A DNA stretch of 57,118 bases. It comes from Candidatus Omnitrophota bacterium. Lineage in GTDB: Bacteria > Omnitrophota > Omnitrophia > Omnitrophales > Omnitrophaceae. Under the pieces are notes generated by a model, which was not told where the DNA came from, ran no database searches, and saw only the letters and a program-made list of their open reading frames with translations. Below, one piece after another: positions 30,101 to 44,352 of this stretch. The position numbers and the translations under genes are program-made. Numbering within the stretch: the first letter of the stretch is position 1; each line of letters starts with the position of its first letter. Where the stretch lies: NCBI GenBank assembly GCA_029561555.1, contig JAKQXH010000080.1, positions 1 through 57,118 on the forward strand, read 5' to 3'.

Positions 30101-33100
30101 GGAATGAAGATTCCACCAGCTTCTCAAGGTCGCTTCTTTTCCGCTGGGCAATTTTAATTTCAACGGCTTGCCCGGATCGAGCGGGACCCAATCGACGAGC
30201 GCGTGAGGATCCAGTTTTTTATCGATAAATTTCAACAGCAATTCCGCCTTTCTCATGAATTCTTCGTAAACAACCCGGGAAGCGATCAGGCGCACGCGTT
30301 TGCCCATGAGAATTCTTTTCAGCACGCCTCCGTCATGATCCTGATGCGCGTGAGTCAGAAGCACATAGGGGACATCCGCTTCTCCCAATCCCAGCTCTTT
30401 CATGTAATGAAGCCCTTCATGGGAAGGATCCACCCATATTCCCAACCCTTCAAGCCACAAAATCATGCTGGTCGTATCTCCCTGGGGATCAAAGCCGGTG
30501 CTGGTTCCGATCCATGTCCGGGCAAATCCGTCCCGCATCTGCTGAATCTGCGCGGCGGCCTGAGCCGGAACCGGATAATGTTTGGGTTCCGGTAAATCAT
30601 ACCGGACGGGAAGCTGGCCAAGGTCTTTATCGGCCCCGTCTTTCGTTTGGGTCACCTTATAACCGGCAATTTCCCCGTCTTCGGCGCGAACCCTTCTGAT
30701 GTTAATAACCCCCGCCGTCATTTGATTTTCGGCAGGGATAACGACTCTTGCCTGATCGTTCCGTTCCTCGAAAGGAATCATTTCAAGGTATCCCTCGACC
30801 GGAATGATTTTTCCGTCTTTGGAGCGAATCGCATAGTGGTTGTGCATGGCTTTCAGGAAATTCCGGTCTTTCTCCGAAAGCCAGGGGTAAACCGCCGGGT
30901 CGCTTAAATCCGGGCCGAAAAGGGTATGACTGAGATATTCCCTTAAAGCCTCTAGCTGCTCCTTCGTCCCCACCACCTGCGGTTTGGGAACATTCGGATT
31001 GAAAAGACTTCCCTTTACGAACGCGTTGAAATAAATCAAAAACTCCATTTCCCCGTATGCCCGGTTATTCACAAAAAGCTGGGGAGGCAGAACAAAAACA
31101 TACTGTTTTCCGGCGCTGAGATCGCCGAACCCGCGCATCATGTCCTTCAGCGTGTTGGAAACGGCACCCAGGAGAACTTCAACGCCAAGGTCTTCGCTCG
31201 GAACCTTCGGGTAACTTCCCTGACCTAAACTTGCCGCGACTGCAGCCGGCGCGACTTCGACAAAAGCCGCTCCTCCTTTGCTCCGCATCGTCACGATCGA
31301 CTTTAGAGTCCCCAACTTAAAGCCCGGAATGTTATGAACCGCTCTTCCCATCACCTGCAATCGATCGATATAGGGCATATAAAATTCCCTCCCGTTGCCG
31401 GAAAAATCGACGATGTAATACTCGCTGTCTCCCCGGAAAAAAGCAATCCCGACGCAAACCGGAACGGACTCTTCTTCCGTTAAAATAATCAATCTCGGAA
31501 GGGCAAAACTTCCTTTCGCATTGCTCCATCCGATAGATTCCAAACCGGCATTTCTCAGCAGGTCGGAAAACGCCTTTAATTCATTCCCTTCCAGTGAAAG
31601 CAGTTTCTCGCTCCAATTATTTCCGGCGAAGTCTTCTCCCAGGTCGCTTTTCCCGTCCCGTAAAGAAAATCTGTAGGCTTCTCCGCCCAGGCTCTGGCCG
31701 ACAAGAATTTCCGGCACAAAAAAGTCCGCGCCCGCCTCCGCACCGGCCGGTTCGACTGTCAATCGGTATGCGCCAATCCGGCTGGTTAACTCAAGCCGTA
31801 ATTGCCGTCTGACCGGACGCGCGGCCCGAGGAAAGTACACCGCAAAGGTTGTAGCGGCCTCAAACTGACCCATGTTTTGAACATCTGCCCTTTCACCCGT
31901 TTTCCCGTTAACCAAAGCGACGGAAACCCCCCGAAGACTGATCGAAGGATCAAAAACTCTCGCGCTGACCCGTAATGCCTGCCGCCCCACTCTCCAGGCG
32001 GTCAGCTCAATATGATCGCCGACTATTTGGTTCTCACCGCCCACGCCGGGAAACTGAAGTTGAGTGAGCATTGTACCCAGTTCGTTCAAGGCCGCTTCCA
32101 ACTCGTCGCCTTGATCCGCTTCCGTTCCCAGGCTTGACGCCTCGCCAAGAAAAATTTCCGGCTTAGGCTTTGCCGCCAAAAAGTCATCCAGTTTCCCGGC
32201 AAGAACGGGATATTGCCCGCGAAAATCCTCGTCGCCGCTTAACTCTTCATTATTTCTCCAAACCATATCCGTCGCCCGGGCAACCGCCCCGCTGTCCGTT
32301 TCGCTCAATCCTTCCAGATCCTTTCGTTCTCCTTCCTCAAGAACCGAAAGAGCCCGAGCGGCCCTGTCCAAGCGGGCCGAAAGGAAAGCGTCCCCGTAAG
32401 GCCCCATGCTGAAATCAAGAGCCCAATCCGCCACCTTTTGCAAATCGTCCAGATCATACTGAAATACCGCCTGCATCAAAGCGGTCAGCGGATCCGCTTT
32501 GGAGCAGTCCGCGTCCGGGTTGGCGTAATATTCGGTTTGAACCATGAAATAAACTTCCGTGCACCAGTAATCCCAGTAAAGCATCAGATAATTCGCCAGC
32601 GCATACATCGGCAGAGTCAGCTGGGTCAAGTCGACCAATTGATCGATCTGTTTACGGTTGTAACCGACCAACCGGCGGATATGTCCTTTTTCCACAATAT
32701 AGCGAACCCAGTCTTGAAGCCGCAGAGGGATAACTTCCTCGTCAATGGCTTGCGCCACATCGCCCCGGCGCCCTAACTGCACGAATTCATACAGCATTTT
32801 TTTGAGTTGAGAACGGTCCCAGGTGTCCTTCCCGCTCAGTTCGCCCAAAAGTTTGCGGAACCGCTCGTCAATTTCAGTGGGCGTCTCCTCGACCAATCCC
32901 CTCTCCTCCCGGATAACCGCCGGAATCTTGCCGACAAATTCTTCCACCGTCGCTTCATTGATGTTGTTCGCTTCGATAAATTCCTGCGTCTTTTTCATAA
33001 ACACAATCATGTCGCGGACGATTTCGGGATCCGTGATCTGATGCATCTGCTGGACCCGATCCAGCAAAATTTTGAATTCCCCCGTCAAGATCGGCAGATA

Positions 33101-36100
33101 CGCATAAAACACGTCCGATGACCCGCCGGCCATAAAACGATTCGCCAAAGGCAACGCCTGCCCCATCAGATTCATCAATTCCTCAAACTGGCGCGGAATA
33201 ATCCTGAAAAGGACGCCCCAGTCCTCTTTTAAAAGATGCTCAACCCATTCGTCCGCCGAATTAGGAAGCCTCTCGGGTTCCATGATGCGGATCCCGTCCC
33301 GTTCGACTTTCACGGCTTCCCTTAAAATTTCGGTGATCCGGTCTTTGGAAAGATTCGGCGCGTTCAGCTGACTGAGAAAATACTGCGCCAGATCCCGTGT
33401 TTCCTCAAAAAGAGTCCCGCCCAGATATTGACCGACTTCCTGCGCGAACATGTCCGCATCCACCTTATGATCCATCCCAAGCGGCAGGCTGGCGGCCCCG
33501 TAAACATGGGCATCCGTCACATAGTGATAGGCTAAAGTTTTTCTTTCATCATAAACGCTTCCTTTTTCCGCCGCGGCAATCAGGATGTCCGCGTAAACAT
33601 GCCGCCCGTCAATCAGGGCTTCTTTTGCACGCAAAAACTCGGTGATTTTTGCCTGTTCGTCCGTCCTCAGCGCCCGGAAACGGACCAGGTCTCTCAGAAT
33701 CGCCACATATTCCACGGTACCGGACTCCTTGGCCTGCCGCTTTGCGGGATCCGTGATATCCCTCTGGGCAGATTGATTCAACGTGTATTTCAGGCGGTAA
33801 CGGTCGATGTGATGCGGAAGCAATTGATTCGCAAGGAAAAGTTCAATGGCCTCGACATCGGGATAATCAAAAATTCTCCAGTTGATCTCAATAACATTGT
33901 CCTGGCGTTTGGATCGTCCCATCACATCAAGATCGTTTGTAAAACGGATCAGCCGAGTCGCAAAAATCCTCTTGGCGTCGCCGTTCTGCGCTTCAACTGC
34001 CCTCAAGAAAGCCTCGGCTCTCTCGGTGCCGACAAAACCAGCCAATTGTTCCTGGACCTGCGTAAAAAGCCCTTCTAAGTCTTCGAGCTCTTCCGCCGGT
34101 TTTGGGAGAAACCCTTCCGCGCCGGCTTCCGGCCCCGCAAGTTGGAGATGTCCCTTTTCCCCTCCTAAGCTCGCGGCCTGCGCCAGTTTCCGGACCCAGG
34201 CTTCTTTCACGCCTCCGGAGCCCTCGATTCTTTGCCCTTCAGGCGTTTGCCTCCAAGCTTCTTCGATCCGTTCTCCCGTCAAAAGCGCGGCGTTCGGATT
34301 GTCGGAGGTGAAAAACCACGCGCCCGTTTTATCCATTTTTTTCGCGCCCAATTCGGTCGCGATCAGAACCGTCCGCGGCGCAAGATACAACGCGCTCGGC
34401 GTGAACGGAGGGTTCGGTCTGCCGGGAAAAGAGTCCGCGGCACTTTCGAGTTTATGCGTTTGATCCCCCACCATAACAATGTTCACCGTGTCCGGATTCA
34501 TCGACCGCTCGATCACGTTCCCGGTCTTCTGTGTCATGGACCACGGCGGAGTGCCGATGCCCGACGGATCGCGTTCGGCCGAAAAATAATTCAGTAACTT
34601 CTGGAATTCCCGGATAAATTCCTCCTCCGATTCAAAGCGGTAATCCCGTTCCAGATAGTTTTGGATATCCTCGAAGCGGTGCGTCATCGAGAAATTCAGG
34701 AGGTCACTCACAAAATTGATCCCGAGTTTTCCCATCAGACGCAAAAATCCCTTGTGAAATTTCATGTCTCCGCCAAAATGGCCGAAGTTCTGCACCTGCG
34801 TCGTCTCGCTGTGCCGCTGCAAACCATCCGCCTGAAGAATCGAAGCCGGATAATCGAAACGCGTGAGCGTGTCGGGGAGATCAAGCATTTTCCGGAGATC
34901 CGTTATAATCTCCCCCATTAAAGCGATCATCCGAAGCTGAGATTCGGTAAACCCGTCATGGCGGCCCGTCCCCAGCCCTCTTAAATTAACCAAAGAGGTT
35001 TCGGGCTCAAGCGCAAATCGCGACATGTTTCTGATAAAACGGTCCTCCGCCTCCCCGTAGGACCCGAACAAAACCGGGGGCGACACAAATCGCCGGTCAA
35101 GCTCTTCTTCCGTCCAATGCGGAAGCGCGTTGCGAAGCAGCATGTATTTCTGCTCGTTCCGGTAGGCGCCGAGTTCATATTTCAAACGATAGGCTTCTTC
35201 GTCGAATTTCTCCCGATCCCAGGGATGAGGTGCCGGCCACCAAAAGTCATCCAACCCCAATTTTTTCAGCACCTCCGGATCCCGCCAGACATAATCGTCC
35301 AATGTATGAACGCCCCGGGCCTTGCCCCACTCGGGATGCTGGTTAAAAACTTCTTTGGCCAGATTCATAAGCCCTAACACTTTGCGAAGAGACTCTGTCG
35401 TCCCGCCCGTCGCGAGTCCGAATGTGAATTCCCTCTGCGCCATTTCCATAAGACGCAAGATGACATACATTGCGGCATAGGTCATCGCATTATCGTCTTC
35501 AACGATAATTTTGATAAACCCCGGCCGGGGATCCAGCACCAGAGCCAGAAGCTTTTCTTCGTTGATGTATTCAAGTCCTTTGCCCTTCGGAACCAACAGG
35601 CCCGTTGCGCGATACCCCTTGCCGTTGAAGCGATAGACTTTCTCATGAGTCGGATTCATGATCAGGCGCTTCGCGTCCGGGAATTCCTTCCGCACATTGG
35701 CCGGAAGAATCAATCCCGACGTCGCCGCGCTTCCCAAACTGCCGGCGTCAACCAGCCGGACTGCGTTGTCCCAACTTGCGGGAGTGTCTTCGGCTCCTTG
35801 ATATGGTTTTCCGGTTCTTTGCTCTTCGCTTGATCTCACAAAAGCGATTTGCATCGACATTAAAATATCCCGATACAAAGCCCTGAAAGCTTCGATCACA
35901 TCATTGATTAATTGATTGCGCTGTTCATTGCCGGGATTCCCGAAAACATTGAATATCGCGTTCAAAGCCAGAAAAGACTCTTTTAATTTCGGCAAATATC
36001 TTTCGACCACTTTCCCGTCAAAGCCTTTCTCCGTTTTAAAGCGTTCGAGCACGGAAATAATCACCCTTTGTTCTGCGATTTCTTCACCCAGAGTCGCTTC

Positions 36101-39100
36101 TTCTGACGTCAATATTTGGGCCATCGCTTCCACTGTCATCCGAACTCTCTCCGGAAGTCGGGCTTTCGCTTCCTCCCAGGAAAGTCTTGCCCCCAGGCTT
36201 GAAGCAGATTCGGTTTTAGCGGCCTGCAAGATTTCCCGAAGTTGCCGCCGATCCGACATTAACGCTTTAACTGCCCCGGTAATTTGCTCGCCCGTTACGG
36301 ATTCCGTGAGATCTTTTCTCTCCGCAACCGCACCGGAAACTTTCACCTGAAACGCTTCCGCCCCCATTTCTTCAATGGTGGTCGTCAGCAATGCGCCGGT
36401 CAGAAAATTGAGCCCTATTTCGCGGCGGCCAAACATCCTCTCCTCTAGCCCTTCACTCGCGGCCCGTTCTTTCACGGCCTTCGCGATCTCCTGCGCCGCT
36501 GCCGTTTTCAAATTTACATTGCCCAAAGACGACGCCGCTGCTTTTCTGAAAGCGTCCCGGAGCATCGCCCGGTTTCCCGCGTTGTCCACAAGACGCATGA
36601 AAACACCCTGGCCGCCCTGCTCCGCTCTTAAATCCGTCAGCGCCTGATAAGACGCCTCCGCAAAATAATCCCTCACCAAATTCGGGCTCACACGATCAAG
36701 ATACCCCTTGGCAAATCCGATCGCGGGCTTTCCCGGAATCGGATCTTCCGAGACAAAGGAAATAATGAACGGCATGTATTTCTGAGGTTGCGCGAGGACC
36801 TGCTGGTAGCTGATATGCTGATCCCCCGTCCCCTGCATGACCCACTCGATGCCCATGGCGATCAATGCGTCCCGCAAGTCAATGAATTTCCCCCCCTCTA
36901 AATAAATGAAGGGCACCAGTTTTCTTCCGCTTGCACGCGCGGTATCCATTGCCGTTCGGATCAAAAGGGTCAAAACAGCCGACGCATTTTGCGCATTGAT
37001 TTTAGGCATGGAAAGAGTCGCGATTTCCGGGACATTGCTCAAAATATGATGCCCCTGAGCCAAAGACAAAACCTCCCCCAAAGCATTTTGAACCGCTTCC
37101 GGATCGGTTTGGGCCGCCTCTTGCAGGGCCTTCAGGCGTTTCTCCAGAAGTCCTTTTCCCAGCTCCACGTAAGGCTGCCGGACATAAAGATTCTGCTGGA
37201 GAATCTTGGTTGCGTCCTTATCCAGATTGCCAACATCAACGTCTTCCACTCTCAGGCCCGCTTTTTCTATCGCGCGCGCGATCAGGCGATTGCCGACCGT
37301 GGCCGTCATACCGTAAAAAATCGTGTTGAGTTCCGCAAACGCTTCGGCTAACGCCTGCTTGTCCCGGGTTTGAAGATCCGGGAGGCGGAAATAATAGGTC
37401 GGATAATCCGCCTCGGAAATCATGCGCGATGAGAGATTGATCACCAACTTATTCTTTGCCCCGCGATAATGTTTTTCCTGGGCATCCCAATCGCTTTGAC
37501 GAATCGCAACGAGATTCGCGAATCCTTCCTGCCAAATGCTTTCGTTAAAATTCTGCTCGATCGATTTTCCAAACCAGAAATACTCGTCGGGAACGACCAG
37601 CGCGATATCCGTGACCTCCCGGTCGAGGACCGCGTTCCCGAGCCTCACGCCCGCATGAATCCCTTCCCGGACCTGCTCGACATTTTCATGCCGCACCCTC
37701 CAATACCGCTCCGCATCCAAATCATGAAACGCGAGAAAGGTCATCATATGGAGGTCTCCCGTCCAGCGCCCTCCCACATTATCGAACATGGCCCCGAACC
37801 CCGGCGCGTCTCCTCCCAATTCCCCGTCCAATCCGGAATTCCGGATAAACGCGGACAAACGGCTCTGTTCCGGACGATCCGTCGTTTCAAAAAACATATT
37901 CCCGAGAACGATTCCGAAAATCTTCCTTACCTGCTCGGGCGTAACGCTTAATCCCCTCGCTTGCGCTTTTTGCGAAATCAACGCAAGCAGACTCGTCGTG
38001 CCGAAACGCTCCTCATCCACTTTAAAAAGGTCTTTTCCCGGCCGTTCTTTCCCGTTAACGAAATTCACTTCATGCAATGTCGCAAGTACGGTATCCGCGA
38101 ATTGTTTCCCGGCGATTCCTTGTTTTTCCGAAATATTTTTCAGGATCGCATAGAAAATATCGGTAAAAATCATCATTGTTTCGTCCGTCGAACCCGATTT
38201 CGAACTGGGAATGACCGCGATTTGGTCCCAATCCGCCCCAATCGCTTTCAACGCCGCTGCGATAGATTCCTCATAATTTTTCCCAAGTTCATATTCGCCG
38301 ATAATCAGGCCCGTTGTTGGGTCAATTACCTGAAAGACATCCGCAATCCCCTGAAAAGGCGTGTGCTGGCCGCCGATTCCCGGTTTGATCACATAACGAA
38401 TGGGTTTTCCGAGTCTTTCGGCGCGCCTTGCAAAAAATTGCTTCATGCCCGTTACGGTATCAAGAAACGCCTGTCTCCCCGTTTCTTTTCCGCCGGCATC
38501 GACCGTAAAATATCCCTGATTTCCTTCGAAGGCAAACGAACCGGCCACGGCCGCCCCTTCCGCAACGCCGTAACCGTCCTGTTCGTATCCGCCCTTCTCA
38601 TAGCGTTTTGCCGTTTCCGCATTTCCATGAGCATCAAGCGGGGTGCTCAATGCTTCGGCAATCATCGCGCCTTTTACGGCTTCCGCGCCAAGACTGGATG
38701 CGGCGGCAACCAAAGCGATCAGTTTTTCCACGTCCGGACGAATTAAAGCAAATCCTCCGGATACCGCGGCGGCGTCCCGGCTCATTTCCAAAAACGGCCT
38801 TAAATTTTCCAAAGCCCTTGCCGCGGCGGCAAAATCCTCCCGCGTCCCTTGCCGTGCAAACGCTTCCACCGAATAGAGGACGCCATCCGTTGTCTGACTG
38901 GCCGTGTCAGAGTTAAAATCCGGACCTTTCATGGTTGCCCGGATCGTTTCGACCCATGTTAAAATTTCTTCTCCGAGGGCCGCGCCGGAAGCCAAAGCAT
39001 AAGCCCGCTGCCGATTTCTCTCCAGCTGATCGACCAGCAATTTAATTTGTCCGGCAGTCGGTTTTTCCCTTAAATCCGTTCTCGCCATCACCGCATCCGT

Positions 39101-42100
39101 CACATCGCGAGTCAATTGTTCAAAACCCGGCTTGGCCAAACTGCTCGTCAATAATGCGCCGACCAACAGATTTAACCCGCTGTTTCCTTTCAAAACGTTT
39201 TTCGGGACTCCTCCGCCGATCGCGTATTGTCTGACGATATTTACCATTTCCGCCGCAACGGCCGTTTCCAAACTCACCTGTCCTTCCGCGCCAAGACTCG
39301 CGGCCTGGGCAGGAGGCTGATAAGTGTCCTCCGGCAGTCCGTCACGGTAATACTCCTGATACGCGTCCCACCCCTTCTCCATCCCGTTCGTCACATACTC
39401 TTCGGGCACAAATCTCCCGTGCAAAGCCGTAATCTCCCCGCTGTAGCCTCCCAACACCGCCGCAAACCTCGCCAGCTCCTTCTTATTATCCCCCATCGCG
39501 TATGACTTCGACTTCGCGTCCGTCCCGGACGGCCGGATCTCCAGCACCTTGTTCGGGAACTTGAAAAACACCCCGTCTCCCACAAAATATATCCCCTCCA
39601 GGTCGCTGAAATCCAACCCCTCGTCCCGGAACGCGTCATTCAATATCTCGATCACCTGCTCCTTCGTGAGCTTCCCGTCCCGGTGCGCCAGCGCCATACT
39701 CAGGAAAAATACGTAATTCTTCGTACGTCTCCCTTCCCCTTCCTTCTTATCCGCCTTCAGCGCGTCAGGATCGGGATTGTTCTGATTGTAATAAACCGTG
39801 TCCTCTCTCACGTCAAACCGCGCCTTGATGTCGTTCGCGTCAAACAGCTCCTGCAGATAATCCGACAGCATCTTCCCCTGCGACTCCAAATGCGCCGCCA
39901 TCGCTGCCTGGATCACCAACGCCTCTCCCGCGCTCTTCTCCCGCATCGCGATCGCCTTACGGCCCCCGACGCTCTCGATCAGCTCCTCGGGACCGATAAT
40001 CATCCCTCCCGACTCTTCTCCCGCGAACAGCATCCTCGGATCCACTCCCAGATTCACCTCTTTCCCGAATACGTCTCTCACGATCACGGGCTCGCCCGGG
40101 TGATCCGCCATCTGCGCCTCAACCTTCTTCATCATCGCCGCGATTTCCTTGAAGCCTACCGGCACGCTCAGCACCTTCACCCCGTTCTTCTCCGCCCATT
40201 CAACCCATGCCGCGGACGACGCCGTCGTCGTGATGATAAATCTCGGATGGTCCCACCACTTCCTCGGCTCCGTGTACCCCAGCGCTTTCTCTTCTTCCGT
40301 CAAGGCCCTCTTCTTATCGCTCTTCGCCGCCTTCAACGCCTCAGCCTGATACACCATCGTCATGAAAAACGACTGGTTCGGCGTGTACAACGCCACAATC
40401 CTCTTCTCATCCAATACCAGATAATCCACTCCCACAGACCTCAAAAACTCTATGCGGTCTGCCGACTCCACCTGCGCCGTCACCAACCGGTCCCCGTCGG
40501 GGTCCGTCATCAATATCGTCGTCCCAACAGGCTTGTCCGCCAGCAGCTTGTCGTAGCCCATTCGCTCCATGACCGGGATCGACTTCACCTCTCCCGTCTT
40601 TTTGTCCCGCTTGATAATCGTCGTATCCTGCGTGTAGTCGTTATACTTCCCGTCTTCCGTCAATTCCTTGCCGATCCCGTGAAAATACGGGTCCTCCTCA
40701 ACGTGCAGCCACTCGAACGAGTCACCGATCCCGAGCCGCTCAAATATCTTCGTCATCGTCCGGTGCATCGACCCTCCGACGCTGTCGATCAGGATCTTCG
40801 AACGCGCGTCACGGATTCGGCCCAGATTCACCTCCGTCGCAACTCCCTTCCTTAAATACTCCACGTACGGAATAATCCCATTCTCAATCGACTTCATGAA
40901 CTCATCGTCAATCAACGCGTCATCCGCAGCCCCGATCTCAAACGTGAACTCCCCTTCGTCGTCCGCTCTCTGAAACGCCTCATGGATCTTCGACACGAAC
41001 TGCACGGACTCCTCAGGCAGATATTGGCTCCCCTGATTGTTGATGTCCTTCGTCGCCGCGAAACTCGACCCCGCGTGTGAACTCGTCGCGTGCTCCGCCC
41101 CAACCAGGTCATACATGAACGCCAAATACGACACCATCCAGATCGGAAGCGGCACCCGCCTCATCACCTTCCCGTGCGCGTCCTCCATCTCCTCGATCCC
41201 GTACGGAACATACGTCCGTATCCCGAGCGCCGCGTTGATACGCGCGATCATGTCCACAAAACGGCCCGTGTTGTATCGGACTTCCCCTCCGGCCATCTTA
41301 CGCAATGCCGCTCCGGGAAACTTCTCATTCACCACCACTCCTTTCGCCCAGGTCGCGAACGCGATTCCGATTTCATTAATACGGTTCCGCGTGTCCCATG
41401 GGTACAGCACGTTCTGCGTCAGCCGGATTCCCGCCGTCGCAACTTTTGCCTCGGCCTCATAATCCTCAAGCCATTTCCACAATCCCAATCCTTCGGGATT
41501 CGTCACAGGATCATAATCGTACAAATGCTCCTTCTTCAACCGGGCCACAATCCGCCCGTCATCCGTAATGTCAAATACGGGGTTCCCGGCCTTGATATGC
41601 GCCGGTGTCTTCTCGTCCACCTGCGCTAAATACACGTCCCGCAAATTGGGCCTGACGGGGCCCAGTACCGGCGCTCCGCCCAGCGATGCGCCTTTTGAAG
41701 GAATAAAAGGATCTACCAATCGAATATCCCTGCGAATGTCTTCGAGAGAACGCGCGCTTGCTCTTGTTGTGCTGAAAATCTGAACGGTACCGGTCCTTAT
41801 CCCTTCAACAATAGCCGGTGCGCCCATCAAGCGCCTAAAAACACTTTGCGCGGACGGCCCATCCCCCGGTAAAAATTGATCGACAAAGAGTTCTTCCCCC
41901 CTGCTGCCCGCCAACAGTTTCGTCAAGCCTTCAAGTTCTTTTCCTTCGATTAACCGAAACCGATCCCGATCTTCTTCTGAAATCGGACCCACTAAAAGCA
42001 ACTTTCCCTCTTCATTTTTATAAACCGCGACCCATCCATTTTGAATGCGCGGAATAACCCGGTTTCGGGCAAGCACCGACGCAATTTCGCTGTCTTTTTT

Positions 42101-44305
42101 GGGAAGAGCTTGATGCACGGCGAGCCTCGGATAAGTCTGTGCGGGATATCGTGAAAAAAACACCTGCAATCCTTCTTCCCGGCTCAAGGGAGAATAATCG
42201 CCGAGAGACGCCGCTTGGGGAAGGTTTTGAATGCCGGCGGGTTGTAAAACGGCCGGCGGCAATGACCCCAAATTCAATCTTCGGAGTTCGTCGTTCGTCG
42301 AAACAGCCTGAACGTCTCCGGCCGGAGAAAGTTTTCTATCGAGAGGCTGAATCAAAACCAGCGGATAATTCCCCCTGACGCGCAAAACATCCGAGGGAAT
42401 CAGCGCAACGGCACGGTTTCCGGTATCTCCGTACGCCGGGATAATCCGTACCCCGTCGTCACGGACCAAAGGATTTTGCTTCAGTTCGTCAAAATAACGG
42501 TTTAAAGCATCGACAAAAGCATTCGGATCGGTTTGCAGGGAAGGGTTTGTGTTGAGCAAATGCTCGGCAAGAGGCGCCACCGCATAAATCAAGGCGCCTA
42601 AAGCGACCTTTTCCTGCCGGATCGGATCGCCCGGGTTCAGCTCCGCATAGACTTTTTGATCCACCGCCTTCAAGGCCGCCACGATTTTGCCTGCCGCAGC
42701 GGATTCGCCGGATTTCGGCGCCGTTTCCCCGAGAAATTCTTCAAGCCGGGTTTTCCCGTTGAGAATTGTTTTATGATAATTTCCCGTTTTGTCTTCCTTT
42801 GATAATTTGGGCTCGATCACCACATGGGCGATATTTTGATCCTCGAGAATTTTCTGAATTCCCTGCGTATGGAACCCGCCCGAAATCAAGACAGCGTTTT
42901 TGAGTTTCTTTTCCCGCGCTTTTCCGAGCAACCGCTCGATAAAGGCGTGTTCGCGCTCCATGGCAAGATCGTAAAATGCCTGCGCGTCCTGAATCGCCCG
43001 ATCGGTTCCGCCGAGGGACTCCTTTTCTTCCGAATCCGAAAGGGTATTCAATGAAGCTATTTTTGCCGCCAAACACGAGGCAGTCAGTTCTTTCTCTCGC
43101 GATTTAAACGAAAGATATTCTTCCCTCGAAACCTCGAGGCGGAGGAATTTCTCAAGAAGCTTCAGATCCCGGCTGATTCCGACGATGGTCCGTTCTTCTT
43201 CCGTCCGGATCAAGAATTCATAGATCCCGGCTTCCAGGGCGGTGATTTCGTCGAAGAAATCTTTCGCGTCGATTTCATCCTGAAGAATGAGATATTTGGC
43301 GAAATTCCCGAATGCCGGATAGGTCTCCGGGGAAATATTCCGTTCGGCGCAGATCCCGTAAAGCGCTTCGAAAAAATATCTCGCCGGAAGCGGCCGGTCC
43401 CAACCGAGGCCTTTCAAATCTTTCAGCGTGGCAAGAACAAATTCCCGTTCGGGGTCTTTTCCCGAAACGCCGTCCTGAATCGCCCGAATCAACGCTTCCT
43501 TTTCTCTCAGGGCCCGATCCGTGTTCTTCTTCAATTCCGGCTCTAACCGCGCGAGAACCGACAAACGGACCAGATTGGGGAATTCACCCTGCTCTTTGGG
43601 GTCCGTAAGGTCCAGCTTCAAAAATCTTTCGGCGGCCTTCCTTAAGTAGCGGCCGTAGTGGAAAAGCGTGTCTTTCCCGTCGCCGAACGCGTTTTTCTTC
43701 GCGTCAAATTTTCTGAGATCGGAGGAAAATTTCTTTGTTTTCAGCGCGATTAAATCTTTTCCGGCTTTCTCGAAAAATGCCCGGTGGGAATTCCATTTCT
43801 CTAAAGTGGCCCGGTAAATCGCAAGGTCTTTGCGGTAACCGTCCTTGTCCTCAAGACCGATCCAGTCAATATCGGCCCGGCCGTTTTCCACCGCAAAAGA
43901 TTCCGCGCCGGTCAATTCCCCGTCTCTGACCAATGAATCAATAACGGCGGCATTGGCCTTTTCCACGGGGAAGAACCGGAAAAGTTCCGGCCGAAGACTG
44001 CCGGACGCCCCTTCGAGACCGATCAAGCGAACCTGATATTTTTCGACCAACTCATTCAAAATGTTTTTAATATGAAGTTGGGCCTCGTAATTGGCGTGCG
44101 CGTCCTGAATATGAATAATCAAAGGAAGCTCGCCCTCGGCGCGGTAGTTGACCGATCCGGCCTCATCGGAAATCCGGATGATCGAATTCCGGTCGACGAG
44201 TTTTTGGAAACGCAAAGGCATTTCCGCCGGATAAGGCGCCGCTCCAAAAACGTTGGTGACCGTAAAGAAAAAAATAACCCCCGAAGAAAGAATTTTCTTA
44301 AACAT
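27161..44305 (-). CDS. Giant (~5714 aa) exported modular multi-enzyme protein
   Basis: Uninterrupted 17.1 kb ORF. GAGGAGG RBS 7 nt before ATG 44305; signal-peptide-like MFKKILSSGVIFFFTVTNVFGA; 14 xxSLG-type linkers; several recognisable enzyme domains. Confidence 0.95.
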   Translation of the reverse strand: MFKKILSSGVIFFFTVTNVFGAAPYPAEMPLRFQKLVDRNSIIRISDEAGSVNYRAEGELPLIIHIQDAHANYEAQLHIKNILNELVEKYQVRLIGLEGASGSLRPELFRFFPVEKANAAVIDSLVRDGELTGAESFAVENGRADIDWIGLEDKDGYRKDLAIYRATLEKWNSHRAFFEKAGKDLIALKTKKFSSDLRKFDAKKNAFGDGKDTLFHYGRYLRKAAERFLKLDLTDPKEQGEFPNLVRLSVLARLEPELKKNTDRALREKEALIRAIQDGVSGKDPEREFVLATLKDLKGLGWDRPLPARYFFEALYGICAERNISPETYPAFGNFAKYLILQDEIDAKDFFDEITALEAGIYEFLIRTEEERTIVGISRDLKLLEKFLRLEVSREEYLSFKSREKELTASCLAAKIASLNTLSDSEEKESLGGTDRAIQDAQAFYDLAMEREHAFIERLLGKAREKKLKNAVLISGGFHTQGIQKILEDQNIAHVVIEPKLSKEDKTGNYHKTILNGKTRLEEFLGETAPKSGESAAAGKIVAALKAVDQKVYAELNPGDPIRQEKVALGALIYAVAPLAEHLLNTNPSLQTDPNAFVDALNRYFDELKQNPLVRDDGVRIIPAYGDTGNRAVALIPSDVLRVRGNYPLVLIQPLDRKLSPAGDVQAVSTNDELRRLNLGSLPPAVLQPAGIQNLPQAASLGDYSPLSREEGLQVFFSRYPAQTYPRLAVHQALPKKDSEIASVLARNRVIPRIQNGWVAVYKNEEGKLLLVGPISEEDRDRFRLIEGKELEGLTKLLAGSRGEELFVDQFLPGDGPSAQSVFRRLMGAPAIVEGIRTGTVQIFSTTRASARSLEDIRRDIRLVDPFIPSKGASLGGAPVLGPVRPNLRDVYLAQVDEKTPAHIKAGNPVFDITDDGRIVARLKKEHLYDYDPVTNPEGLGLWKWLEDYEAEAKVATAGIRLTQNVLYPWDTRNRINEIGIAFATWAKGVVVNEKFPGAALRKMAGGEVRYNTGRFVDMIARINAALGIRTYVPYGIEEMEDAHGKVMRRVPLPIWMVSYLAFMYDLVGAEHATSSHAGSSFAATKDINNQGSQYLPEESVQFVSKIHEAFQRADDEGEFTFEIGAADDALIDDEFMKSIENGIIPYVEYLRKGVATEVNLGRIRDARSKILIDSVGGSMHRTMTKIFERLGIGDSFEWLHVEEDPYFHGIGKELTEDGKYNDYTQDTTIIKRDKKTGEVKSIPVMERMGYDKLLADKPVGTTILMTDPDGDRLVTAQVESADRIEFLRSVGVDYLVLDEKRIVALYTPNQSFFMTMVYQAEALKAAKSDKKRALTEEEKALGYTEPRKWWDHPRFIITTTASSAAWVEWAEKNGVKVLSVPVGFKEIAAMMKKVEAQMADHPGEPVIVRDVFGKEVNLGVDPRMLFAGEESGGMIIGPEELIESVGGRKAIAMREKSAGEALVIQAAMAAHLESQGKMLSDYLQELFDANDIKARFDVREDTVYYNQNNPDPDALKADKKEGEGRRTKNYVFFLSMALAHRDGKLTKEQVIEILNDAFRDEGLDFSDLEGIYFVGDGVFFKFPNKVLEIRPSGTDAKSKSYAMGDNKKELARFAAVLGGYSGEITALHGRFVPEEYVTNGMEKGWDAYQEYYRDGLPEDTYQPPAQAASLGAEGQVSLETAVAAEMVNIVRQYAIGGGVPKNVLKGNSGLNLLVGALLTSSLAKPGFEQLTRDVTDAVMARTDLREKPTAGQIKLLVDQLERNRQRAYALASGAALGEEILTWVETIRATMKGPDFNSDTASQTTDGVLYSVEAFARQGTREDFAAAARALENLRPFLEMSRDAAAVSGGFALIRPDVEKLIALVAAASSLGAEAVKGAMIAEALSTPLDAHGNAETAKRYEKGGYEQDGYGVAEGAAVAGSFAFEGNQGYFTVDAGGKETGRQAFLDTVTGMKQFFARRAERLGKPIRYVIKPGIGGQHTPFQGIADVFQVIDPTTGLIIGEYELGKNYEESIAAALKAIGADWDQIAVIPSSKSGSTDETMMIFTDIFYAILKNISEKQGIAGKQFADTVLATLHEVNFVNGKERPGKDLFKVDEERFGTTSLLALISQKAQARGLSVTPEQVRKIFGIVLGNMFFETTDRPEQSRLSAFIRNSGLDGELGGDAPGFGAMFDNVGGRWTGDLHMMTFLAFHDLDAERYWRVRHENVEQVREGIHAGVRLGNAVLDREVTDIALVVPDEYFWFGKSIEQNFNESIWQEGFANLVAIRQSDWDAQEKHYRGAKNKLVINLSSRMISEADYPTYYFRLPDLQTRDKQALAEAFAELNTIFYGMTATVGNRLIARAIEKAGLRVEDVDVGNLDKDATKILQQNLYVRQPYVELGKGLLEKRLKALQEAAQTDPEAVQNALGEVLSLAQGHHILSNVPEIATLSMPKINAQNASAVLTLLIRTAMDTARASGRKLVPFIYLEGGKFIDLRDALIAMGIEWVMQGTGDQHISYQQVLAQPQKYMPFIISFVSEDPIPGKPAIGFAKGYLDRVSPNLVRDYFAEASYQALTDLRAEQGGQGVFMRLVDNAGNRAMLRDAFRKAAASSLGNVNLKTAAAQEIAKAVKERAASEGLEERMFGRREIGLNFLTGALLTTTIEEMGAEAFQVKVSGAVAERKDLTESVTGEQITGAVKALMSDRRQLREILQAAKTESASSLGARLSWEEAKARLPERVRMTVEAMAQILTSEEATLGEEIAEQRVIISVLERFKTEKGFDGKVVERYLPKLKESFLALNAIFNVFGNPGNEQRNQLINDVIEAFRALYRDILMSMQIAFVRSSEEQRTGKPYQGAEDTPASWDNAVRLVDAGSLGSAATSGLILPANVRKEFPDAKRLIMNPTHEKVYRFNGKGYRATGLLVPKGKGLEYINEEKLLALVLDPRPGFIKIIVEDDNAMTYAAMYVILRLMEMAQREFTFGLATGGTTESLRKVLGLMNLAKEVFNQHPEWGKARGVHTLDDYVWRDPEVLKKLGLDDFWWPAPHPWDREKFDEEAYRLKYELGAYRNEQKYMLLRNALPHWTEEELDRRFVSPPVLFGSYGEAEDRFIRNMSRFALEPETSLVNLRGLGTGRHDGFTESQLRMIALMGEIITDLRKMLDLPDTLTRFDYPASILQADGLQRHSETTQVQNFGHFGGDMKFHKGFLRLMGKLGINFVSDLLNFSMTHRFEDIQNYLERDYRFESEEEFIREFQKLLNYFSAERDPSGIGTPPWSMTQKTGNVIERSMNPDTVNIVMVGDQTHKLESAADSFPGRPNPPFTPSALYLAPRTVLIATELGAKKMDKTGAWFFTSDNPNAALLTGERIEEAWRQTPEGQRIEGSGGVKEAWVRKLAQAASLGGEKGHLQLAGPEAGAEGFLPKPAEELEDLEGLFTQVQEQLAGFVGTERAEAFLRAVEAQNGDAKRIFATRLIRFTNDLDVMGRSKRQDNVIEINWRIFDYPDVEAIELFLANQLLPHHIDRYRLKYTLNQSAQRDITDPAKRQAKESGTVEYVAILRDLVRFRALRTDEQAKITEFLRAKEALIDGRHVYADILIAAAEKGSVYDERKTLAYHYVTDAHVYGAASLPLGMDHKVDADMFAQEVGQYLGGTLFEETRDLAQYFLSQLNAPNLSKDRITEILREAVKVERDGIRIMEPERLPNSADEWVEHLLKEDWGVLFRIIPRQFEELMNLMGQALPLANRFMAGGSSDVFYAYLPILTGEFKILLDRVQQMHQITDPEIVRDMIVFMKKTQEFIEANNINEATVEEFVGKIPAVIREERGLVEETPTEIDERFRKLLGELSGKDTWDRSQLKKMLYEFVQLGRRGDVAQAIDEEVIPLRLQDWVRYIVEKGHIRRLVGYNRKQIDQLVDLTQLTLPMYALANYLMLYWDYWCTEVYFMVQTEYYANPDADCSKADPLTALMQAVFQYDLDDLQKVADWALDFSMGPYGDAFLSARLDRAARALSVLEEGERKDLEGLSETDSGAVARATDMVWRNNEELSGDEDFRGQYPVLAGKLDDFLAAKPKPEIFLGEASSLGTEADQGDELEAALNELGTMLTQLQFPGVGGENQIVGDHIELTAWRVGRQALRVSARVFDPSISLRGVSVALVNGKTGERADVQNMGQFEAATTFAVYFPRAARPVRRQLRLELTSRIGAYRLTVEPAGAEAGADFFVPEILVGQSLGGEAYRFSLRDGKSDLGEDFAGNNWSEKLLSLEGNELKAFSDLLRNAGLESIGWSNAKGSFALPRLIILTEEESVPVCVGIAFFRGDSEYYIVDFSGNGREFYMPYIDRLQVMGRAVHNIPGFKLGTLKSIVTMRSKGGAAFVEVAPAAVAASLGQGSYPKVPSEDLGVEVLLGAVSNTLKDMMRGFGDLSAGKQYVFVLPPQLFVNNRAYGEMEFLIYFNAFVKGSLFNPNVPKPQVVGTKEQLEALREYLSHTLFGPDLSDPAVYPWLSEKDRNFLKAMHNHYAIRSKDGKIIPVEGYLEMIPFEERNDQARVVIPAENQMTAGVINIRRVRAEDGEIAGYKVTQTKDGADKDLGQLPVRYDLPEPKHYPVPAQAAAQIQQMRDGFARTWIGTSTGFDPQGDTTSMILWLEGLGIWVDPSHEGLHYMKELGLGEADVPYVLLTHAHQDHDGGVLKRILMGKRVRLIASRVVYEEFMRKAELLLKFIDKKLDPHALVDWVPLDPGKPLKLKLPSGKEATLRSWWNLHSIPTNGFSIEYDGFRYAHSSDTQWDPAFIDKLVREKKITPNEGRAQKYRFVKKDGTSKFDFIDHEAGGAPIHTTLEMLAQLPDDVRQRMNVYHVPDSKVEEKFGLAKGRMFETTPFISSDTERQQLHEIGVLTSNALMKDKSGDFYDVFQRLARRETVQKGQTLTIQGHRIHVMAFNGFRGLSAEGPEIEGDRGRAYFIVSGVAGVYVDGKKVAELGPSTHFGDWSIVTGEPRTATVVAEEPLEVYSLTPAAYLALFGSPATIERVQWLRENLETLEAWSQNTTKTSQFFQDLSDFALIVLAGEAAERKYKAGETVIREGTTGREFFIVKRGRADVVKGEEEAQHFIASIQPGESFGEIALLRDVERTANVVAGTDLDVLVFTREQLMTLLDHYPLIRMEMERQVDDRILELIRDYVDRPSFKRLVPSVAEFRLLLAHLARKYSGDRMHALLSMMDKTILDLGAGRDAHLVRTLRGLGFSYVRGVDVAVNTVMPYLLQGDMRNLDMIESGTVDVVFITNFLQDDLFYEKYPKDFYERIAREIFRILRPDGRFYLVTGDNADPALEHFRQAGFQVNTLVRGMYELIKPGETVGASLGVTGPSELGKTFSAYEAALKERDALKGTKGVSQDALRQADAKVQTTREAFSGEMQKRGWGALSLPDEEVLRTMRAMEALDKRHDISGQSLGFEAAAQLMGILSAQGRRLFEADGVNRTLTGWIHETGEAGGFFHALYFGAEEVPDAGISDELSGALQMQAESLNPGLGRTAYYREESSEGEFAVLAATAEDISVSALKVQLGVNKLAYAEVVYVGDTGYEKFESDLKRELGDLFGRVELTKVASRDEAVKFLNGLAANPRLRSLGGAGKTVLSQTELAPHITYLASPDIVNGLIASQSVKLATPAEEDLEGISREDFRLYGNTVGFALARLAGDAEKLSKVPGMDQALRKTGRVDLFRFNTDSLAERISQLTGEFQGFLAILRAA
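28331..28800 (-). other. Domain of giant protein: class I SAM-dependent methyltransferase
   Basis: ILDLGAG (motif I), GVDV, QGDMRNL, VDVV, IFRILRPDGRF. Confidence 0.8.
28880..29730 (-). other. Domains of giant protein: two cyclic-nucleotide-binding domains
   Basis: AYFIVSG...HFGDWSIVTGEPRTATVVA and FFIVKRG...SFGEIALLRDVERTANVVA phosphate-binding cassettes. Confidence 0.9.
29770..31222 (-). other. Domain of giant protein: metallo-beta-lactamase-fold hydrolase (RNase Z / cNMP phosphodiesterase-like)
   Basis: WIGTSTGFD, IWVDP, LLTHAHQDHDGG (HxHxDH), LHSIPT, SSDT, HEA, IHTT, VYH. Confidence 0.85.
34178..35731 (-). other. Module of giant protein: glucosamine-6-phosphate deaminase (NagB)-like
   Basis: FGLATGGT (cf. 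GLATGST), TLDDY (cf. NLDEY), GLGTGRHDGFTE (cf. GIGxxGHIxFNE), IVMVGD. Confidence 0.65.
36536..38686 (-). other. Module of giant protein: glucose-6-phosphate isomerase-like (SIS fold)
   Basis: GIGGQ, SSKSGSTDET, ETTD, NVGGRWT, NES, GTGDQH, QPYVELGK. Confidence 0.8.
39305..41677 (-). other. Module of giant protein: alpha-D-phosphohexomutase (PGM/PMM)
   Basis: TAGIR, TSSH phosphoserine loop, DPDGDR metal loop, GEESGG sugar loop, IRPSGT phosphate loop. Confidence 0.9.
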
Positions 44306-44352
44306 GCAAAGCTTCCTCCTCATAATTTGATCTGAAAATTAGATGTGCTTAA

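What the first reader, a model, noticed from the sequence alone, without database searches (positions are those of the whole stretch)
39305..41677. Codon-usage switch confined between two linkers marks a recently inserted module
Inside the phosphohexomutase module, Lys and Glu are mostly AAG/GAG and third positions are G-rich (e.g. AAG TCG AAG ... AAT AAG AAG GAG CTG GCG). The flanking modules and the housekeeping genes favour AAA/GAA (e.g. GAA GGA AAA GAA CTT GAA just upstream). The switch coincides with the GASLG (41678) and AASLG (39290) linkers. The plus strand becomes visibly C-rich and yields long antisense ORFs. This suggests the giant grows by in-frame capture of linker-bounded cassettes from other genomes or other giant genes.
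Basis: partly seen in the sequence, partly recalled or inferred. Interest (0 to 1): 0.7.

Follow-up and report, generated by a model that had tools for sequence, protein, structure and literature searches.

The report
Odd-codon enzyme cassette in giant gene
One complete sugar-phosphate enzyme module inside a 5720-residue Omnitrophota giant protein is written in a codon dialect found nowhere else in the genome and bounded by two peptide linkers, and a close relative shows that such linker-bounded modules are swapped in and out of these giants.

Summary
In the giant ORF (window 27161-44323, minus strand) the phosphohexomutase cassette (aa 883-1675) uses G-ending codons: AAG 0.89, GAG 0.80, CAG 0.95, G3 0.54. 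The rest of the gene has about 0.35-0.40 for those codons and G3 0.34. An unsupervised change-point falls between aa 877/901 and 1673/1680, bracketing the GASLG and AASLG linkers (LLR 53.9; shuffle maximum 11.2). The cassette is the single outlier among 184 linker-bounded modules and ties for the most deviant of 1708 genome windows.

Cassette turnover at linkers is directly visible against a close ortholog (L045): unrelated content in a second slot, a one-module indel, and one PGM cassette joined to two different downstream contexts, with DNA identity ending at the linker. The same enzyme shows no codon step in 11 other host giants, so the style is not intrinsic to it.

"Recent insertion" is not shown. 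No donor was found (best relative 70% identical). The sister organism has a 55%-identical PGM cassette in the same slot with the same G-ending style, and a different genus shows a weaker step. Repeated import from an unsampled G-rich pool (0.5) and an actively maintained cassette-specific style (0.3) both remain open. Misassembly is unlikely.

The parts
27161..44323 (-). Giant ORF of 5720 aa. It has an N-terminal hydrophobic leader, a conserved N-terminal domain of about 500 aa, and then 15 modules separated by [AGSQ][AS]SLG-type peptide linkers.
   Evidence: Independent assembly records carry the same protein: P0281 (Logan, 1 aa different) and L063 (JGI, 100% nt identity over 16,352 nt).
39299..41677 (-). 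Phosphohexomutase (PGM/PMM-like) cassette, aa 883-1675, written in an extreme G-ending codon style.
   Evidence: Codon statistics. Pfam PGM_PMM_III passes its cut-off, while II and IV fall below theirs. Catalytic loops TSSH 1080, DPDGDR 1274, GEESGG 1435 and RPSGTD 1597. AlphaFold model pLDDT 87, and all top PDB fold hits are PGM/PMM/GlmM.
41678..41692 (-). N-side linker GASLG (aa 878-882).
   Evidence: The codon step occurs across it at 40-codon resolution. The K/E/Q change-point lies between aa 877 and 901.
39290..39304 (-). C-side linker AASLG (aa 1674-1678).
   Evidence: The right edge of the codon-model segment is at aa 1661-1671. The same 'YQPP..AQAASLG' ending is found after the sister's PGM cassette in L045 and L047.
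38972..39289 (-). X domain of about 100 aa (aa 1679-1779) plus the degenerate linker GAALG (aa 1780-1784). It has native codon style. It is present here but absent at this place in the ortholog L045.
   Evidence: It is a paralog of aa 2602-2711 (37-39% identity).
36521..38686 (-). PGI-like module (aa 1880-2601) with native codon style. It is 83% identical to the L045 ortholog.
   Evidence: Stand-alone homologs occur in G002, G027 and this genome's own C107:2052-4184 (59-60%), and embedded copies occur in the giants of G008 and G020.
31223..32125 (-). Slot 2: two modules (aa 4067-4213 and 4214-4367) between conserved linkers. The ortholog L045 holds an unrelated 317-aa module here.
   Evidence: best E = 0.08 between the slot contents, while the flanks are near-identical right up to the ASLG motifs. 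Codon style is native in both.
39683..40855 (+). Antisense ORF (390 aa from GTG; 449 aa stop-to-stop from 39506). It is a by-product and not a gene.
   Evidence: It is in exact reverse-complement codon register with the sense frame. It has no Pfam match. Longer antisense frames exist outside the cassette.
41090..41629 (+). Second antisense ORF (179 aa), also a by-product.

Best explanation
The cassette is a complete, catalytically intact phosphohexomutase unit whose DNA has a different history from the rest of the giant gene. It was placed in frame between two peptide linkers by recombination with cassette-bearing DNA from outside this genome. Most likely it replaced a resident PGM cassette in the same slot. 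Its G-ending codon style is then the background composition of the source, not yet blended into the host's.

Shown: the compositional discontinuity and its coincidence with the linkers. Shown: the cassette corresponds to one stand-alone gene. Shown: cassettes differ between orthologous giants exactly at linkers. Shown: the style is not intrinsic to the enzyme.

Inferred: the direction of the event (import), the recombination mechanism, and the existence of a G-rich donor pool. Because the linkers are conserved as peptide and not as DNA, the breakpoints probably appear to sit at linkers through selection. Only joins that preserve whole modules and intact linkers would survive.
For: (1) The step is highly significant and brackets the linkers.

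(2) The cassette is the only outlier among 184 modules. It exceeds every ORF of at least 200 aa, and its RSCU distance to the genome mean is 5.20, against a maximum of 4.43 for ORFs of at least 600 aa and 1.55 for the rest of the giant. It is tied for first of 1708 windows in tetranucleotide distance.

(3) It is not an expression style. EF-G-like, enolase and DnaK genes have AAG/GAG 0.44-0.53 and G3 0.34-0.43.

(4) G-ending use is the same at conserved and variable residues (0.69 vs 0.74; Mantel-Haenszel z = -0.5). That pattern fits a background composition.

(5) The same enzyme shows no step in 11 other host giants (L024, L026, L027, L028, L058, L059/L069, L060, L067, L068, L070, L071). It tracks host style in about 70 stand-alone copies.

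(6) Distribution is patchy. There is no paralog in this genome, none in 40 relatives of the same family or order, and 9 of 401 genomes of the phylum carry it.

(7) Cassette mobility is directly seen. The enzyme sits at different positions and orders in different giants. L045 and L047 share 98.7% identity that ends at the linker. Slot 2 is replaced and the X domain is an indel between orthologs.

(8) The PGM tail of ours versus the sister's has dN 0.35, against 0.06-0.17 in six of the seven flank modules (0.32 in the seventh, a 99-codon spacer). Ours is 62-68% identical to cassettes of unrelated giants but 55% identical to its positional counterpart.

(9) Both junctions are present in an independent Logan assembly that differs by one residue. 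The C-side junction is also present in a second JGI record.
Against: No donor was found. The nearest relative is 70% identical. No lineage among 80 species-representative loci, nor any other locus examined, has this G-ending style natively. No viral copies were found.

Three G-rich cassettes (ours, the sister's PGM', and L057 in another genus) are mutually 55-69% identical. The pool would therefore have to be a diverse yet uniformly G-rich clade that donated three times into one order.

An AU test does not reject ours and PGM' being sisters (p = 0.11, 194 columns, long PGM' branch). Vertical descent with acceleration therefore remains possible.

The style is an exaggeration of the host's own preferences, since the host already favours ACG, GCG, CCG, CGG and CTG. 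The host also has C34 tRNAs for the G-ending codons.
Confidence: 0.5

Rival explanations
1. The G-ending style is generated or maintained in place. In this clade of ASLG-linker giants the PGM cassette would be under a cassette-specific pressure that keeps third positions at G through long divergence. That pressure could be selection on translation or mRNA, or a targeted biased mutation or conversion process. The cassette would then have been resident since before the split from the L045 organism and would have evolved fast in the sister.
For: The same slot carries the same style in the sister organism: G3 0.61-0.63 and AAG 0.86-0.88, against 0.27-0.39 just past the linker. This holds although flank dS is 0.8-2.2.

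By inference, neutral decay over that distance would require an implausibly extreme ancestral G3 (about 0.75 or more).

A weaker step begins exactly at the RSExR linker before the PGM cassette of L057 in another genus (LLR 38). The AU test does not reject sisterhood of ours and PGM'. The style amplifies host preferences. No donor exists in the databases.
Against: No mechanism is known that would act on one module of an ORF. Other conserved enzyme modules in the same ORF (PGI-like, NagB-like, MBL) show nothing.

There is no link between residue conservation and G-ending codons. There is no step in 11 other host giants, including close relatives of the L057 cassette.

C3 falls while G3 rises, which GC-biased gene conversion would not produce. 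The scenario also needs a 3-6-fold protein-rate acceleration.
Confidence: 0.3
2. The cassette derives from a native, very highly expressed stand-alone gene of this or a closely related genome. It was fused into the giant and keeps its 'optimal codon' style.
For: Highly expressed genes lean slightly toward G-ending codons. A stand-alone homolog with a signal peptide (P0002) sits directly upstream of a giant in another metagenome. The PGI-like module does have a native stand-alone paralog.
Against: There is no paralog of the PGM cassette in this genome or in 40 relatives. The cassette is far more biased than any gene found, including DnaK, enolase and the EF-G-like gene. The bias is not concentrated at conserved sites.

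Ribosomal-protein and EF-Tu genes are missing from this 83%-complete MAG, so the native 'optimal' set is poorly defined.
Confidence: 0.07
3. Assembly chimera: the contig joins DNA of two organisms at the linkers.
For: The window comes from a metagenome-assembled genome. The step coincides with short conserved motifs. Reads could not be inspected.
Against: The linker DNA is not conserved, since its synonymous codons vary, so it offers no repeat for a false join. The frame is kept across both junctions.

An independent Logan assembly with one amino-acid difference contains both junctions. A second JGI record is 100% identical across the C-side junction. The sister organism has the same PGM-AQAASLG arrangement, with the same step, on two contigs.
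Confidence: 0.02
4. An overlapping antisense gene on the plus strand constrains sense third positions.
For: Antisense ORFs of 390 and 179 aa lie inside the cassette.
Against: They are in exact reverse-complement codon register, so their openness follows from the low use of TTA, CTA and TCA. The longest such frame (630 aa) lies in another module with ordinary codon style. They have no Pfam match.
Confidence: 0.02

Closest known systems
Omnitrophota giant proteins ('Archaeovorins' and related; West-Roberts et al. 2023, bioRxiv 10.1101/2023.11.21.568195; 2026 preprint 10.64898/2026.06.07.730766)
   Same: The host phylum is the same. Both are multi-thousand-residue, membrane-anchored proteins carrying sugar-phosphate enzyme domains, including PGM/PMM, PGI and TIM. 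Those authors already proposed post-translational cleavage.
   Different: Term searches of the two papers found no mention of 'linker' or 'recombination'; codon-usage steps and cassette exchange are not described in the passages found. West-Roberts et al. state that cleavage points are unknown and that the incorporation of new domains remains open. This case adds linker-bounded cassettes, lineage-specific linker peptides, ortholog-level cassette turnover and a codon discontinuity.
Mosaic genes and module exchange in multi-modular proteins, such as NRPS/PKS module swapping, Rhs/polymorphic-toxin tip replacement and mosaic pbp genes (from general knowledge)
   Same: An in-frame segment of one ORF has a different history from its flanks. 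Breakpoints recur at module borders.
   Different: The exchanged unit here is a whole housekeeping-type metabolic enzyme. The border is a 5-residue peptide motif that is conserved as protein and not as DNA. The codon signature recurs in divergent cassettes of the same enzyme.
Compositional detection of horizontally acquired DNA and amelioration (Lawrence and Ochman framework; see also PMC3002238 on native codon-usage axes)
   Same: Atypical codon and oligonucleotide composition relative to the genome is read as foreign origin.
   Different: The signal is confined to one sub-gene segment. Its persistence in a sister lineage across near-saturated synonymous divergence is not what simple amelioration predicts.
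alpha-D-phosphohexomutase superfamily (PGM, PMM/PGM, GlmM)
   Same: It has the four-domain fold and the four catalytic loops in canonical order.
   Different: It is 793 aa long, against 440-570 aa, and only 11-15% identical to solved structures. No PDB match is found by sequence. It belongs to a long-form family found stand-alone in Poribacteria and Gastranaerophilales.

Membership tests
alpha-D-phosphohexomutase superfamily | Four-domain alpha/beta fold | tested here: met
   AlphaFold model pLDDT 87, pTM 0.88. All 50 top Foldseek PDB hits are PGM/PMM/GlmM/phosphopentomutase, with E down to 3e-19 and TM (target-normalised) up to 0.79.
alpha-D-phosphohexomutase superfamily | Phosphoserine loop, metal loop (DxDxDR), sugar loop (GEESG) and phosphate loop (RxSGTE/D) in this order | tested here: met
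   TSSH at aa 1080, DPDGDR at 1274, GEESGG at 1435, RPSGTD at 1597. All four are invariant in a 20-sequence alignment.
alpha-D-phosphohexomutase superfamily | Pfam domain models above gathering score | tested here: inconclusive
   PGM_PMM_III scores 35.6, above its cut-off of 20.7. PGM_PMM_II scores 23.9 (cut-off 29.3) and PGM_PMM_IV 16.5 (cut-off 23.1). Domain I is not detected. NCBIfam Arch_GlmM scores 42.6 bits, far below its cut-off of 439.
alpha-D-phosphohexomutase superfamily | Phosphosugar mutase activity and substrate | not testable with these tools
   Needs an enzyme assay of the expressed cassette.
Horizontally acquired segment (compositional and phylogenetic criteria) | Composition atypical for the host genome | tested here: met
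Horizontally acquired segment (compositional and phylogenetic criteria) | Patchy distribution; absent from close relatives | tested here: met
   0 of 40 relatives and 9 of 401 genomes of the phylum carry it. The exception is that the metagenomic sister (L045/L047) has a divergent cassette in the same slot.
Horizontally acquired segment (compositional and phylogenetic criteria) | Gene tree conflicts with host relationships | tested here: inconclusive
   The tail tree puts PGM' outside a 12-cassette clade that contains ours (87/82 support). However, the AU test gives p = 0.11 and PGM' sits on a long branch.
Horizontally acquired segment (compositional and phylogenetic criteria) | Identifiable donor lineage with matching sequence and composition | tested here: not met
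   The best relative is 70% identical. No locus shows a native G-ending style.
Mosaic gene formed by cassette exchange | Orthologous genes differ by whole segments, with breakpoints at shared boundaries | tested here: met
   Slot 2 content is unrelated between conserved linkers. The X domain is an indel. The L045/L047 identity ends at the linker.
Omnitrophota giant multi-enzyme proteins | Omnitrophota host, ORF of more than 5000 aa, N-terminal membrane or leader segment, embedded sugar-metabolism enzyme domains | tested here: met
   The shared N-terminal domain is found in giants of all 41 genomes searched. The formal domain definition of 'Archaeovorin' was not checked.

The most novel reading that the evidence does not exclude
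The G-ending codon style is an actively maintained property of PGM cassettes in this clade of giants. It would be a module-specific translational or mRNA programme, or a targeted biased mutation or conversion process, acting on one segment of a 17-kb ORF. It would persist through saturating synonymous divergence while the protein evolves several-fold faster than its flanks.
Probability: 0.27. Interest if true: 0.8.

Novelty: new variant of a known kind. Interest (0 to 1): 0.6.

Why it matters
How Omnitrophota giant genes arise and take up new domains is explicitly listed as open in the literature. This locus gives concrete, testable evidence. Whole metabolic enzymes behave as cassettes bounded by short, lineage-specific peptide linkers (ASLG here, RSExR in another genus), and they are gained, lost and replaced between close orthologs.

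The linkers also give candidate cleavage points for the proposed processing of giants, which the published work lacked.

The recurrence of one codon dialect in divergent copies of one enzyme cassette is unexplained. If it is maintained in place, it would be a rare case of sub-gene codon control.

Tried and rejected
1. Searches contained a scripting bug: plus-strand ORFs were reverse-complemented. They were discarded and redone.

2. P0122 (5945 aa, cassette at the same relative position) is not a collinear ortholog. Only the N-terminal domain and the cassette match.

3. Empty-site search. The modules flanking the cassette have no orthologs in 40 relatives. L047's giant has no ortholog in this genome.

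4. Donor search. The single-protein scan of genome contigs found nothing. The viral contig scan found nothing. The alignment-based scan of species representatives found hosts but no G-rich lineage. The closest fragment with DNA (L062, 71% identity) is AT3-rich like its neighbour gene.

5. DNA for P0122, P0125 and P0273 could not be fetched because of the 5000-aa limit. P0002 has no DNA on file and P0003 is not on record.

6. Linker DNA as a recombination site was rejected, because its synonymous codons vary freely.

7. GC-biased gene conversion was rejected as the sole cause, because C3 falls.

8. Translational-accuracy selection was rejected.

9. An antisense gene was rejected.

10. tRNA mismatch: the host has C34 tRNAs for the G-ending codons, so this test does not discriminate.

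12. Slot-2 cassettes have no Pfam matches and no relatives in this genome or any fetched locus.
Full report
WHAT IS THERE

The window is a contig of a 2.2-Mb Candidatus Omnitrophota MAG. A single ORF on the minus strand (27161-44323, 5720 aa) carries a hydrophobic N-terminal leader and 15 'SLG' motifs, mostly [AGS][AS]SLG. These motifs divide it into modules.

The genome has 29 ORFs of at least 1500 aa. [AGS]SLG occurs 114 times in their 100,273 residues, against 49 times in 482,690 residues of shorter ORFs, which is an 11-fold enrichment.

The flagged segment (aa 883-1675, window 39299-41677) lies between GASLG and AASLG. It is a divergent, enlarged alpha-D-phosphohexomutase:
- Pfam PGM_PMM_III passes its cut-off.
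- The four catalytic loops are present in canonical order.
- A confident model (pLDDT 87) matches only PGM/PMM/GlmM structures, at 11-15% identity.
- There is no PDB match by sequence.

Inside the cassette AAG/Lys is 0.89, GAG/Glu 0.80, CAG/Gln 0.95, GC3 0.76 and G3 0.54. The other modules have GAG 0.07-0.50, GC3 0.45-0.64 and G3 0.27-0.40, and AAG 0-0.43 apart from one 90-aa module with 7 Lys.

The bias is G-ending in nearly every family: RSCU for ACG is 3.55, GCG 3.15, TCG 2.66 and GTG 2.59. C-ending four-fold codons collapse (ACC 0.15, CGC 0.19). First and second codon positions are unchanged.

An unsupervised change-point on K/E/Q codons picks aa 901-1673, with the neighbouring outside codons at 877 and 1680. 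This brackets the linkers at 880-882 and 1676-1678. Its LLR is 53.9, against 6.4 +/- 1.5 (maximum 11.2) in synonymous shuffles. Fisher p is 5e-25.

At 40-codon resolution the step sits on both linkers. A full codon model shows that the first 80 or so codons are less extreme, so the N-side edge is softer than the C-side edge.

Genome-wide the cassette is unique:
- It is beyond every ORF of at least 200 aa.
- It is the only outlier of 184 linker-bounded modules.
- Its RSCU distance to the genome mean is 5.20, against a maximum of 4.43 for ORFs of at least 600 aa.
- It is tied for first of 1708 windows in tetranucleotide distance.

The remark about antisense ORFs is true but not specific. Such frames are in reverse-complement codon register, and the longest lies in another module.

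NOT AN ARTEFACT, NOT AN EXPRESSION STYLE, NOT INTRINSIC TO THE ENZYME

Artefact. An independent Logan assembly differing by one residue contains both junctions. A second JGI record is 100% identical over 16.3 kb, including the C-side junction. The linker DNA is not a repeat.

Expression style. The highly expressed genes that could be found (EF-G-like, enolase, DnaK) have AAG/GAG 0.44-0.53 and G3 0.34-0.43. G-ending use does not differ between conserved and variable residues.

Intrinsic to the enzyme. The same enzyme shows no step in 11 other host giants. It tracks host style in about 70 stand-alone genes of Poribacteria and Gastranaerophilales.

THE CASSETTE IN ITS FAMILY

Stand-alone homologs of 705-760 aa align to residues 17-776 of the 793, so the cassette equals one gene.

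Its closest relatives (61-70% identity) are embedded in other Omnitrophota giants at different positions: aa 868 of 5945, 2686 of 4781, 1224 of 2349 and 4808 of 7416. The order relative to a PGI-like module also differs. Apart from such modules these giants share only an N-terminal domain of about 500 aa.

The cassette has no paralog in this genome. It is absent from 40 relatives and occurs in 9 of 401 genomes of the phylum.

In another genus the giants use a different linker, R[SA]ExR, with 21-24 copies per protein. There the cassette is bounded by that motif instead.

DIRECT EVIDENCE FOR CASSETTE TURNOVER AT LINKERS

A metagenomic contig (L045) encodes a close, collinear ortholog of the giant from aa 1778 to the end. 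It is 65-89% identical, with flank dS 0.8-2.2 and dN 0.06-0.17 in six of seven modules, 0.32 in a 99-codon spacer. Against it, three differences stand out.

(a) Slot 2. Between two conserved linkers whose flanks are near-identical, ours has two modules (aa 4067-4367). The ortholog has an unrelated 317-aa module there (best E = 0.08).

(b) X-domain indel. A 100-aa X domain plus a degenerate GAALG linker follows the PGM cassette in ours and is missing at that place in the ortholog.

(c) PGM'. L045 begins, at its contig end, in the tail of a PGM cassette (PGM') in the same slot. A second contig of the same sample (L047) carries the same tail at 98.7% DNA identity. That identity stops at the last linker codon, after which a different giant continues.

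So linker-bounded modules are gained, lost, replaced and copied between giants.

THE TWIST

PGM' is only 55% identical to our cassette over its 190 known residues (dN 0.35). Ours is 62-68% identical to cassettes of unrelated giants over the same stretch.

Yet PGM' carries the same G-ending style in both contexts: G3 0.61-0.63, AAG 0.86-0.88 and GAG 0.85-1.0. This drops to 0.27-0.39 immediately after the linker.

In a different genus, L057 shows a weaker step (G3 0.48 vs about 0.30, LLR 38). Its left edge coincides with the RSExR linker in front of its PGM cassette. Cassettes 84-85% identical to it in sister species show none.

A tail tree puts PGM' outside the clade containing ours (87/82), but on a long branch. 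An AU test does not reject their sisterhood (p = 0.11).

READING

Two explanations survive.

Favoured (0.5): the slot has been refilled, in this lineage and in the sister, from a pool of PGM cassettes that reside in a G-rich background. The codon style is the unblended mark of that origin. This fits the uniqueness of the signal, its background-like uniformity, the patchy distribution, the elevated dN and the demonstrated cassette traffic. Its weakness is that no such donor is visible anywhere that was searched.

Alternative (0.3): the style is kept in place by a cassette-specific pressure. This explains the shared slot and style across near-saturated synonymous divergence. By inference, neutral decay over dS of about 1 would demand an ancestral G3 of about 0.75 or more. 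Its weaknesses are the lack of a known mechanism, its restriction to one enzyme in a few hosts, and the absence of any signature of selection at conserved sites.

Less likely: a fusion of a native highly expressed gene (0.07), a chimera (0.02) and an antisense gene (0.02).

RELATION TO THE LITERATURE

Omnitrophota giants with PGM/PMM, PGI and TIM domains, and the idea that they are cleaved, are published. In term searches of those papers I found no mention of linkers or recombination, and the passages found do not describe cassette exchange between orthologs or codon discontinuities. One of them states that cleavage points are unknown and that domain incorporation is an open question.

VERDICT

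The general idea of linker-bounded cassette exchange is supported by independent evidence. 'Recent insertion that makes the giant grow' is not shown, and replacement within an existing slot or long-maintained bias fits better. This is a new variant of a known kind (mosaic, modular genes), with one unexplained feature.

Noticed in passing
L024 (P0123), L026 (P0124), L057/L064, L058, L061: Giants of another genus in the same order use a different recurrent linker, R[SA]ExR (for example ARSEARA), with 21-24 copies per protein. Their PGM cassette is bounded by it. Linkers are therefore lineage-specific peptide motifs, which fits recognition by a lineage-specific factor such as a processing protease.
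   Followed up: partly
L045:1-226 and L047:361-585: Two contigs of one metagenome share the tail of a PGM cassette at 98.7% DNA identity. The identity ends at the last linker codon and the downstream giants differ. This means either two recent copies in one genome or two strain arrangements.
   Followed up: partly
window 31223-32125 vs L045:7508-8449: A second slot between conserved linkers holds unrelated content in the two orthologs. Neither content has Pfam matches or relatives in the material fetched.
   Followed up: partly
window 41678-43006 (aa 439-530 part): The first 90 or so residues after the first ESLG motif match hundreds of giant ORFs in all 41 genomes searched (up to 41 matches per genome). 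They form part of a shared N-terminal domain of Omnitrophota giants.
   Followed up: no
G000 C107:2052-4184: This genome has a stand-alone paralog (817-aa ORF, 59% identity) of the giant's PGI-like module. The same module is stand-alone in G002 and G027 and embedded in the giants of G008 and G020.
   Followed up: no
G000 C58:6149-17932 (first 200 codons), C37:597-12140 (aa 3440-3847), C66 giants: Other, milder G3-rich tracts occur in this genome's giants: G3 0.62 over the first 200 codons of the C58 giant, and G3 0.46 with K/E/Q G-ending 0.72 in the last module of the C37 giant. Their content was not examined.
   Followed up: no
L060 (G265:C40): The cassette also lies inside an open frame of 40,752 aa in a genome of another family, with no codon step.
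   Followed up: no
L070: The whole giant has G3 0.22 and C3 0.23, while the other long ORFs of the locus have G3 0.32 and C3 0.39 by a crude ORF call. An entire giant may differ in codon style from its neighbours.
   Followed up: no
L067, L068, L071: MAGs labelled Nanoarchaeia and Elusimicrobia carry the same giant-type cassette (62-63% identity) inside ORFs of 6000-6800 aa. L067 and L068 give identical module statistics, which suggests mislabelled or duplicated bins.
   Followed up: no
P0002 (ENA ERZ1426847 contig): A 1057-aa stand-alone form of the cassette, with a signal-peptide-like N-terminus and RAEAR/RAEER motifs at both ends, sits directly upstream of a giant gene of more than 4605 aa. 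It may be an intermediate between the free and the embedded state.
   Followed up: no
L074-L143: The long-form phosphohexomutase is a conserved stand-alone gene in dozens of Candidatus Poribacteria genomes (45-48% identity to the cassette).
   Followed up: no
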